Below, piece after piece: positions 10,463-62,735 of a stretch of DNA of 64,000 nucleotides. The translations under genes were made by a program, and so were the position numbers. The notes beneath the pieces are model-generated. The model was not told the DNA's origin, made no database searches, and worked only from the letters and a program-made list of their open reading frames with translations. Within the stretch, counting starts at the first letter, position 1. The number at the start of each line of letters is the position of its first letter. Source of the DNA: Octopus vulgaris (lineage: Eukaryota); contig OX597826.1 of the NCBI GenBank assembly GCA_951406725.2, positions 49,600,001 to 49,664,000 of the forward strand, read 5' to 3'.

Positions 10463-10940
10463 AGCCCACAACTTACGAGACCTCTTGGTCCACAGCTTCT
10501 TCCCTAACCCAACCTCCCAAGCCAACTCGTTCCCCTGCTCCCGCCCACGCTGCCGAACTTTCCCTTACCTCTCCAAAACCACCCTCCTCACCGGTACCCA
10601 TCATCCACCCAATCATATCACCGACTCCTTCACCTGCACTTTTACCAATGTCCTCTACTGCATCTCCTGCTCCGTCTGCCCTTTTCTATACATCGGGCAA
10701 ACGGGATGTCGCTTGGCTGACCGGTTTGCGGAACACCTCCGAGATAACCGACTCGGCAATGACACCCCGTTCTCGAGCCATTTCCGCTCTATCGGTCACT
10801 CTTTGCAACACCTGTCTGTGTTCGGATTGTCCTTGCACAGGTGCCATCCGGACTCCCGTTTGTGCCGTGAACAGGGATTAATCTTCTCTCTTCGCTTCTT
10901 TGCGCCACATGGGCTCATCTCTCCTCCCCTCTTCATCTAA
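10463..10940 (+). pseudogene. Penelope-like element (Neptune-type) linker and GIY-YIG endonuclease fragment
   Basis: HNLRDLLVHS...PCSRPRCRT...FTCTFTNVLYCISCSVCPFLYIGQTG.RLADRFAEH...HF...REQGLIF.L...PHGL. Confidence 0.9.
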
Positions 10941-61293: not shown

Positions 61294-61739
61294 TCGATGA
61301 ATAGTATACAGCTGTAGACATTGTCATTGCAGCTTCACTACTGCTGTTGTTGATATTTGAGCAATTGTTGCCATCCTTATTAATACCGCTGTTGTTTAGA
61401 GGTGGGGGTTGTTGGAGGTACCCACCCTGAAGAGGAAACATTATCCCCAATCGTTTCAAGGTCTTCTAGATTCGAAAGAGACACCGAGGGAGTGAGAGAG
61501 AGAGAAGGACAAAGAGAGACAAAGAGAGAGTGAGAAAGAGAGAAATAGAGACAGACAAACAGAACTGGTTGAAATTGACATAGTATATGTTTATGTTCAG
61601 TTTTAATTCTAGCAGGTTTGATGCCTGATTGTGTCAGGCGAGAAGCAAAGATTCTGCAGATACGCAATTCTTTTTGAAGGATTAGTGAAAAGCATATAAT
61701 TATTCATGAGGTGCATGCCAAACAGCATGAATCCAGACA

Positions 61740-62345
61740 ATAATATATCTGTACTTTCTCTCTGTACATTCTAGCAGTTTCGAACGTCCATAACAAATCA
61801 TATTTTGTTTTTCGTCATCAGAGAATACTTCTCTTTCAACGATATGTGTTCATAAACACACGTAGTTCACTGGTATAAGGGGACTTCAAAACACCGCGAT
61901 GTTTCAACCTTTTTGTGTATCTTCTCAGTCGAAAACTACCCCGCTGGACGGATGAATAAAAGAAAAAAAAAGCACGAGCTCTTCTTTATATCAGCAATAA
62001 TAATTCCTGAGATGTTCTCAGAACAGCTAGAATCGAAATAGTAATGCATCTATTCATTTTTAATACGTTCTGGCAGATACGAAAATGGATATGCCATCGC
62101 TGTTACTTTTCGTCATCAGAGATCACCTCCTCCCTTGAAAGGATGCGTTTTCGGCCGAGGAGACCCAGAACGAGGTCGAAACATCGCGGTGTCTCGAAGT
62201 CCGATTACACAGGTGAATCGCGTGTGTTGTGAACATACATTGCCAAAAGGGAAGAGATGTTCTCCGATGACGAATAACAATTGCGATCAGACATTTATAT
62301 TCTAATCTGCCAGAACGTATTAAGAATGAACAGATACGCTATTGA
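61740..62345. mobile_element. Hammerhead-bearing repeat cluster (two minus-strand units, one plus-strand unit), retrozyme/Penelope-like
   Basis: 62041-62135 is an inverted copy of 62247-62342; 61800-61935 is an inverted copy of 62150-62285. Confidence 0.7.
62150..62198 (+). ncRNA. Type I hammerhead ribozyme fold (core U4>C)
   Basis: TTCGG-CCGAGGA-GACC CAGAACGA GGTC-GAA-ACATC GC GGTGT-C-TCGAA: all three stems pair, GUC triplet. Confidence 0.7.
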
Positions 62346-62735
62346 TTGATAAAAAAAAAACTTTTGCCTTTGTGAGGTGAGGTACAATGTGTATGAAAAA
62401 GAATCTACACAGATGGGCTTAAATAGGGTTGATAAAGAAACAGCTACTTGAAAAAAACGGAGACTGGTGTAGTGACAATAAAAATCGCATTAAGAATCAT
62501 GGCACACCAATGAACATAGTGTGGCTGTAGTGTGGTAATTGCATATGTTAACGGTTTAATTATTGGTTAACCAGAGATCTGACACGTGCCATTTACTGGT
62601 TTTAACTGATTAAATATAAGTGTAATATGGTAACTAAGGATTGGTTGTGCAAATGATGTTCAAGAGCATTTTTTGATGGCGTCATTCTATCAATGTAGCG
62701 ATTGTACAAGGCCTTTCTAATATAAGACCTGATTT

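What the first reader, a model, noticed from the sequence alone, without database searches (positions are those of the whole stretch)
61740..62345. Retrozyme-like cluster: about 300-bp units with a GUC hammerhead in tandem and inverted arrangement
Seen: a complete hammerhead fold at 62150-62198 (+; one core change, CCGAGGA) and a decayed homolog at 61885-61933 (-; CTGAGAA). The two defects are complementary, so the implied ancestor is CTGAGGA. Two minus-strand units are offset by 298 bp (CGTCATCAG at 61813 and 62111). The plus unit is flanked by a roughly 95-bp inverted repeat, placing the ribozyme in the loop of a long hairpin. A stem-II-less C(T/C)GATGA-C-GAA motif is present in all three units. 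Known: non-LTR retrozymes are short tandem monomers with type I hammerheads that yield circular RNAs, and Penelope insertions often carry inverted segments. Inference: an undescribed cephalopod retrozyme family.
Basis: partly seen in the sequence, partly recalled or inferred. Interest (0 to 1): 0.72.

Follow-up and report, generated by a model that had tools for sequence, protein, structure and literature searches.

The report
Aged retrozyme with Penelope insertion footprint
This is one decayed, likely dead copy of an old family of short non-coding repeats whose 339-base unit carries a predicted self-cutting hammerhead RNA and whose copies have the ends typical of Penelope-type jumping genes, so it is a new member of a known kind of animal element (retrozyme).

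Summary
In detail: a type I hammerhead at 62150-62198 (+, U4C) and a decayed homolog on the minus strand. The window holds one head-to-head, two-armed insertion (about 61696-62348) of a dispersed family; 151 loci were examined. The monomer is 339 nt, not 298 (this copy lacks 41 nt). The family's majority core is canonical. The inverted repeat is just the overlap of the two arms, and the 'stem-II-less' motif is not a hammerhead. Copies have scattered 5' ends but two fixed 3' ends about 40 nt apart (59 of 92 held-out arms, 16 expected), usually one of each per two-armed insertion (21 of 28): the Penelope 'tail' signature. No protein-coding partner was found. Arms run through the cleavage site, so the template was a circle or an uncut multimer. 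The unit carries the box pair found upstream of this genome's U1/U2 genes, a likely promoter; the window copy has lost one box. Copies are about 20% diverged with no covariation, so the family looks extinct. Cleavage and circular RNA are not shown. This scan noted the same layout earlier in other families.

The parts
62150..62348 (+). Plus arm: monomer positions 296-339 then 1-155 (position 1 = first base after the GUC site); ends at the short fixed 3' end (about 150-155)
   Evidence: 86% to the family majority sequence, ungapped
62150..62198 (+). Type I hammerhead, U4C; stem I 62150-62154/62194-62198, stem II 62162-62165/62174-62177, near-palindromic stem III 62181-62192; predicted cut after 62193
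   Evidence: fold not favoured in this copy
61696..62152 (-). Minus arm, about 1.3 monomers: positions 38-192, deletion of 193-233, 234-339, then 1 to about 193; ends at the long ('tail') fixed 3' end
   Evidence: 72%; BLAST end 61690, pinned end about 61696
61885..61933 (-). Decayed hammerhead (G8A, C17U, G-U in place of the G10.1-C11.1 pair)
61696..61738 (-). Tail: about 40 nt (monomer 151-193) present on this arm's end and absent from the plus arm's end
62150..62152 (.). Head-to-head joint of the two arms with a 3-nt overlap
62001..62005 (-). First box (AATTA, monomer 185-189) of the U1/U2-like box pair; the second box (217-221) lies in the 41-nt deletion
62048..62335 (.). Inverted repeat 62048-62136 / 62247-62335: overlap of the two arms, not a separate element
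62264..62274 (+). CCGATGACGAA motif (homologs at 62111-62119 and 61813-61821, minus): predicted 3' strand of a hairpin at monomer 46-80, not a hammerhead

Best explanation
This is a decayed two-armed insertion of an old, dispersed, non-coding 339-nt repeat with a predicted type I hammerhead, likely transcribed from an internal U1/U2-type promoter, likely cut into monomers and closed into circles, and likely pasted in by the enzyme of a Penelope-like retrotransposon. Shown: family, monomer length, majority core, two fixed 3' ends at about +150 and +190 from the cut site, scattered 5' ends, head-to-head arms, arms running through the cut site, star-like decay. Inferred steps: (1) a copy with promoter boxes (185-222) and two hammerheads starts RNA at about 277, 24 nt before the core; (2) the two hammerheads, probably pairing through their palindromic stem III, release a 339-nt monomer that is ligated; (3) a Penelope RT-GIY-YIG protein nicks both strands of AT-rich DNA and starts reverse transcription inside the RNA at one site from one nick and at the other site from the second nick; (4) each cDNA runs round the template for a variable length and the two 5' ends are joined, giving back-to-back arms with a tail on one. 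Because the promoter lies upstream of the RNA start, only copies longer than about 1.5-1.9 units regain promoter plus two ribozymes. The window copy has one damaged ribozyme per strand and no second promoter box, so it is likely dead.
For: Monomer and core: (35 copies). Fixed 3' ends: 89 of 116 arms in 73 loci fall in 135-170 or 180-202 (windows set after seeing the data); held-out test on 62 loci chosen only by a hammerhead model: 59 of 92 arms, 16 expected, p 3e-23, while 5' ends give 14 of 92. Head-to-head joints 31 of 73 and 20 of 62 loci; tail-to-tail 2 and 1. One short plus one long end in 21 of 28 joints with both ends classed (13.6 expected, p 0.004; 23 of 51 joints dropped because an end lay outside both windows). 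This matches the published PLE layout: 5' truncation, partial tandems, inverted 5' copy, 30-40 bp tail often at one end (PMC8557442 passages), and two internal RT start sites with nicking of both strands at ATT (PMC11167929 parts 1-2 of 4). Both ends here finish in TTATT. Target-duplication-like 7-15 bp matches in 10 of 29 two-armed loci against 4.2% of swapped pairs. 177 passes through the cut site among 249 arms; no pile-up of 5' ends there (11 of 249, 11.8 expected) or at the predicted RNA start (4, 11 expected). Tandem units within an arm are about as diverged (72.8%) as units of different loci (71.8%), so tandems date from insertion. Promoter: AATTA-N27-ATCAG lies upstream of 11 of 15 U2 and 14 of 15 U1 genes, +1 at 57-61 nt from box 2; the monomer has it once, in sense (19 of 20000 shuffles); box pair plus hammerhead core gives 51 genomic hits against 4 for the reversed pattern, including other families. 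An snRNA-type promoter is reported for newt satellite 2 (cited in PMC2220036). The genome holds intact RT-GIY-YIG elements.
Against: No cleavage or circular RNA was shown. In vitro, a Penelope enzyme used uncut RNA as its main template and ribozyme mutants did not affect insertion (PMC11167929), so read-through of the cut site does not need a circle. No partner element was found: no similarity of the unit to 34 GIY-YIG/PLE loci (best E 8.5), and only 2 of 151 family loci have PLE protein hits, neither joined to an arm. No covariation among 40 copies or, in an automated test, against the sister family (23 of 57 changed pairs kept, 20 expected; hammerhead region misaligned). In the predicted circle stems II and III do not form; forcing the hammerhead costs 6.1 kcal/mol. 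The promoter match is 10 of 12 to the full AATTAA/ATCAGT pair, which 98 of 2000 shuffles reach, and it matches 1 of 4 tied top word pairs. The short/long pairing alone is p 0.056 in the held-out set. The window locus itself shows no target duplication.
Confidence: 0.68

Rival explanations
1. Same element and same Penelope enzyme, but the template was an uncut linear multimer from a few long tandem master copies; the ribozyme mainly frees RNA ends or is a passenger, and no circle is involved.
For: PAc uses unprocessed RNA as its main substrate and starts internally. A star-like family fits few masters. Palindromic stem III implies slow cleavage as a monomer (PMC4209133). No circle data here.
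Against: Each linear round would lose the first promoter-bearing unit (inference). The longest arm seen is about 3.3 units, with no long array among 151 loci. No pile-up of 5' ends at the predicted RNA start. Retrozymes of coral, mussel and axolotl are mostly circular in vivo (PMC7229834 sections 14, 17).
Confidence: 0.22
2. The copies are orphan terminal repeats (pLTR stumps) of an extinct autonomous Penelope-like element, not a self-standing retrozyme.
For: The end geometry is that of PLEs, and most PLE ribozyme hits are truncated solo copies.
Against: Upstream of the ribozyme the arms continue into another monomer, not an ORF: arms longer than one unit in 42 of 62 held-out loci. No shared coding flank. 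The ribozyme has the canonical form with helix III, not the minimal PLE form. Longest stop-free frame in the circular monomer is 82 codons.
Confidence: 0.06
3. A MITE or locally amplified satellite that happens to contain a hammerhead-like sequence; or the window's hairpin is a selected structure that regulates the ribozyme.
For: Two-armed copies look like terminal inverted repeats; a few loci show recent local duplication (L187, L040).
Against: Inverted ends are absent from many loci (35 of 73 have a single arm), differ by a tail and have variable inner joints. Tandem units are not more alike than dispersed ones. Core conservation is close to the neutral background (88% against 81% overall; 16 of 75 cores intact). 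The window's two arms are only 63-78% alike.
Confidence: 0.04

Closest known systems
Metazoan non-LTR retrozymes (Cervera and de la Pena 2020, PMC7229834: passages, sections 14 and 17 read, supplement not readable; Li, Clavereau and Pollet 2026, bioRxiv 10.64898/2026.07.22.740005: parts 1-3 of 5 read)
   Same: Canonical type I hammerhead, about 300-bp non-coding monomer (mussel 350-390, axolotl 331/353), GC under 45%, dimers and trimers, predicted strong self-pairing, coexistence with PLEs.
   Different: No sequence link to a described family was tested. Here copies are mostly dispersed partial tandems with back-to-back arms and fixed ends; the sections I read do not map ends. No PLE terminal-repeat homology found here, unlike 24 of 57 Xenopus families. 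This family is old and expression is not shown.
Endonuclease-bearing Penelope-like elements and their non-autonomous derivatives such as Chlamys-dependent MRC1 (PMC8557442 passages; PMC11167929 parts 1-2 of 4; PMC4209133 parts 1-2 of 4)
   Same: 5' truncation, partial tandems, inverted 5' copy, about 40-nt tail at one end, two 3' ends downstream of a hammerhead, AT-rich targets.
   Different: No RT-GIY-YIG ORF; unit of 339 nt; canonical rather than minimal (helix-III-less) hammerhead; partner not identified.
Newt satellite 2 (Coats, Zhang and Epstein 1994; seen only as a citation and one sentence in PMC2220036; paper not held)
   Same: Hammerhead-bearing tandem repeat with an internal snRNA-type promoter.
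   Different: The box pair here is inferred from this genome's U1/U2 genes and is untested; copies are dispersed, not a satellite.

Membership tests
Non-LTR retrozyme | Canonical type I hammerhead (family level) | tested here: met
   Majority core canonical, stems of 7, 3 and 4 bp, palindromic stem III; 82% of cells pair. Window copies carry U4C and G8A+C17U.
Non-LTR retrozyme | Short monomer (about 170-400 nt) in head-to-tail repeats | tested here: met
   339 nt; 18 of 151 loci have an arm spanning two ribozyme positions; one spans three (L152).
Non-LTR retrozyme | Non-coding, GC under 45%, no LTR | tested here: met
   GC 44.8%; longest stop-free frame 82 codons.
Non-LTR retrozyme | Highly self-paired monomer RNA (predicted) | tested here: met
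   Circular fold of the majority sequence -112.8 kcal/mol against -83.2 +/- 4.9 for 100 shuffles; no covariation support.
Non-LTR retrozyme | Self-cleavage | not testable with these tools
   Bench assay needed.
Non-LTR retrozyme | Expression as circular RNA | tested here: inconclusive
   Only contigs of runs guessed to be RNA were available; they cannot show circles.
Active retrozyme copy (Li et al. criterion), window locus | Two consecutive units with complete hammerheads | tested here: not met
   One damaged hammerhead per strand.
Autonomous Penelope-like element | RT plus GIY-YIG ORF | tested here: not met
   None joined to any of 151 loci, using a profile from Neptune-like proteins of this genome only.
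Penelope-type insertion | Fixed 3' ends with optional 30-40 bp tail, variable 5' ends | tested here: met
Penelope-type insertion | Inverted 5'-truncated copy at the 5' end; partial tandems | tested here: met
   51 head-to-head joints in 135 loci against 3 tail-to-tail.
Penelope-type insertion | Sequence homology to an autonomous PLE terminal repeat | tested here: inconclusive
   None in 34 loci, a small part of 6136 GIY-YIG candidates.
MITE (DNA transposon) | Constant terminal inverted repeats and constant length | tested here: not met
   Arm lengths 42-1110 nt; single-arm loci common; the two ends usually differ.
Minimal or non-circularly permuted hammerhead (second motif) | Helices I and II (minimal form) or three helices in any strand order | tested here: not met
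   No arrangement with helices of at least 4, 2 and 2 bp; the minimal form lacks helix III, not II.
snRNA-type promoter | Upstream element shared with U1/U2 genes at matching distance from the start | tested here: inconclusive
   Box pair present with exact spacing (strict null 0.1%, lenient 4.9%) and enriched before hammerhead cores (51 against 4); RNA start not mapped.

The most novel reading that the evidence does not exclude
The copies record the retrozyme life cycle: an snRNA-type promoter inside the unit but upstream of the RNA start makes a circle necessary, and a Penelope enzyme primes both nicked DNA strands on that circle at two fixed sites, one site per strand, so every two-armed insertion has one short and one tailed end. 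The same promoter-ribozyme spacing (76-88 nt) recurs in other families of this genome and may be a general design.
Probability: 0.4. Interest if true: 0.65.

Novelty: new member of a known kind. Interest (0 to 1): 0.4.

Why it matters
The copy itself is a relic. The family gives genomic evidence on a point the retrozyme papers leave open: which enzyme moves animal retrozymes and how. Cervera and de la Pena name PLEs as a candidate; Li et al. list the mobilisation mechanism as future work and discuss local tandem growth. Here the ends are PLE-type and the tandems date from insertion. The two end positions and the promoter boxes define small RNA and DNA substrates for a test. Each ingredient has precedent, and this scan has already noted the layout in younger families, which are better material.

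Tried and rejected
Sequencing runs: no RNA holder listed for the window stretch. Contigs of two runs guessed to be RNA and two others, laid on L051, gave only short pieces and no joints. Neither is evidence on expression. Partner search: the young Neptune-like element (L096-L099) and 30 GIY-YIG loci show no similarity to the unit. Covariation among copies: none above shuffles; against the sister family: not significant. The idea that the window's deletion starting at 192 marks a general template jump at the fixed ends: 5 of 21 internal deletions start in the end windows, p 0.30, rejected. Second motif as minimal or permuted hammerhead: rejected. Pol III promoter: a B-box-like GTTCGAATC lies at monomer 106 and the sense strand has no TTTT run, but there is no A box; not adopted. 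Rfam found no other family on six well-kept loci, only microsatellite hits. Exact-match target duplication test was weak (3 of 20); the mismatch-tolerant version is reported. Look-up of earlier findings by sequence returned nothing. PMC10886601 was irrelevant. PMC308520 is not held.

Full report
Observation. The sequence features are there. Rfam Hammerhead_1 matches 62149-62199 (+) at 26.3 bits, under the family cut-off. The core reads CCGAGGA (U4C) with GUC at 62191-62193. The minus homolog at 61885-61933 has G8A and also C17U. The 298-bp offset and an 89-nt, 78% inverted repeat are confirmed. U4C is reported to lower activity in vitro but to be tolerated in a viroid (PMC3088659 passage). Neither window copy folds into the hammerhead by minimum free energy.

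The family. The stretch has 503 candidate places in the own genome (2.8 Gb), 40 scored. I examined 151 distinct loci, the window included; the true number is higher and was not counted. Thirty-five copies give a 339-nt circularly permuted monomer, GC 44.8%, with a canonical type I core, stems of 7, 3 and 4 bp and a palindromic stem III. I number it from the first base after GUC. Copies average 80% identity to the majority and the best arm reaches 87%; decay is strongest at CpG. Sixteen of 75 spanned cores are intact, 3 of them from loci picked by a core pattern, which is near the neutral expectation. Forty copies show no covariation. The window insertion is covered, with its flanks, by contigs of four runs labelled as other organisms, the most distant differing at about 5-7% of bases, so it is old.

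Anatomy of the window copy. Two arms point away from a joint at 62150-62152. The plus arm covers monomer 296-339 and 1-155. The minus arm covers 38-192, lacks 193-233, and goes on through 234-339 and 1 to about 193. So the 298 offset is 339 minus 41, and the inverted repeat is the part that both arms cover. The third motif, CCGATGACGAA, has C at its second position in 24 of 35 copies, lies on a predicted hairpin strand, cannot form helices II and III in any order tested, and differs in a sister family. Minimal PLE hammerheads lack helix III, not II.

Ends. In 73 discovery loci, 89 of 116 arm 3' ends fall at 135-170 or 180-202 (windows set post hoc; queries favoured long arms). In 62 new loci chosen only by the ribozyme model (30 top hits plus 40 lower-ranked ones that I picked from the 150 listed, 8 duplicates dropped), 59 of 92 do so against 16 expected, while 5' ends are flat (14 of 92). 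The peaks are at about 150-153 and 189-193, both ending in TTATT, with AT-rich flanks. Head-to-head joints number 31 and 20, tail-to-tail 2 and 1. Of 28 joints with both ends classed, 21 have one short and one long end (13.6 expected; 15 of 21 and 6 of 7 separately; 23 joints dropped). The window copy is such a case. Duplication-like matches of 7-15 bp flank 10 of 29 two-armed loci against 4.2% of swapped pairs, one an exact 12-mer (L051); the window locus has none. This is the layout described for PLEs, and it fits two internal RT start sites and nicking of both strands.

Template. Arms exceed one monomer in 42 of 62 held-out loci. Among 249 arms there are 177 passes through the cut site and no excess of 5' ends there. 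Units within an arm are 72.8% alike, the two arms of a locus 72.7%, different loci 71.8%; shared derived bases are slightly higher within loci (8% against 6%). Tandems therefore arose at insertion, from a circle or an uncut multimer. The data do not separate these. The circle is favoured by analogy and by the promoter position; the PAc result that uncut RNA is the main substrate speaks for the rival.

Promoter. Following a lead from earlier scan notes I took 15 U2 and 15 U1 genes. AATTA-N27-ATCAG is one of four tied top word pairs, in 11 and 14 of them, with +1 at 57-61 nt from the second box. The monomer has it once, in sense, at 185-221, putting the start near 277. Strict shuffles give 19 of 20000; a lenient 10-of-12 test gives 98 of 2000. 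The pair followed by a hammerhead core occurs 51 times in the genome against 4 for the reversed pattern. Of 30 hits fetched, 7 belong to this family, 11 to a sister family (61% over 322 nt, so not independent), and 12 to neither, of which at least 3 look like hammerheads of other families at 83-85 nt. An snRNA-type promoter is already reported for newt satellite 2. Six of 151 loci keep an arm spanning promoter plus two ribozyme positions. The window copy has lost the second box.

Partner. The genome holds many intact 781-residue RT-GIY-YIG frames, but the unit has no similarity to the 34 loci tested, and PLE protein hits in 2 of 151 family loci are not joined to an arm. The partner is unidentified.

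Known and new. The family meets the sequence criteria for non-LTR retrozymes; cleavage and circles are untested. Eight literature searches listed no paper on an octopus retrozyme family or on end-mapping of retrozyme insertions; the giant squid paper counts 235 Hammerhead_1 hits; supplements of the two main retrozyme papers were not seen. Earlier notes of this scan describe the same two-armed layout and promoter idea in other families; these are unchecked and were used as leads only. Verdict: new member of a known kind, likely dead copy, interest 0.4.

Noticed in passing
L097:5038-5240 (-) and L130-L141: A young, unrelated hammerhead family (95-97% between copies, 2423 candidates) with a fixed 3' end about 135 nt after the predicted cut, an optional tail, 5' truncations and inversions, inserted in (TA)n. 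Full unit not determined.
   Followed up: partly
L096, L097, L098, L099: Young Neptune-like PLE with a 781-residue RT-GIY-YIG frame preceded, in L096 and L097, by a second frame of 333-359 codons; my pattern scan found no canonical hammerhead in its own repeat.
   Followed up: partly
L279, L280, L282, L284, L285, L289, L291, L293, L297, L298, L306, L308-L310: Sister retrozyme family, 61% alike and collinear with the window family, with the same promoter boxes and, by eye, different stem sequences around the same core.
   Followed up: partly
L004, L041, L053, L200 at monomer 49-56: Repeated insertion of 244-465 bp elements with hAT-like ends (family name recalled) at the same 8-bp site of the unit, duplicated in L200.
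   Followed up: partly
L286; L287, L292, L311: Further hammerhead-like sequences 83-85 nt after the U1/U2 box pair, unrelated to the window family.
   Followed up: no
L143, L144, L147: A hammerhead family with a very long helix II region (108-nt Rfam matches); L143 and L144 show inverted arms. L142 is a solo high-scoring hammerhead, 45.5 bits.
   Followed up: no
L187 and L012: Units with a 161-nt period from internal deletion; in L187 two segments are 99-100% alike, a recent local duplication.
   Followed up: no
window 10473-10883: Decayed GIY-YIG endonuclease remnant of a PLE, about 30% to the PLE proteins.
   Followed up: no
L253, L260: Two U2 genes share an upstream region that lacks the box pair seen in the other U1/U2 genes.
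   Followed up: no
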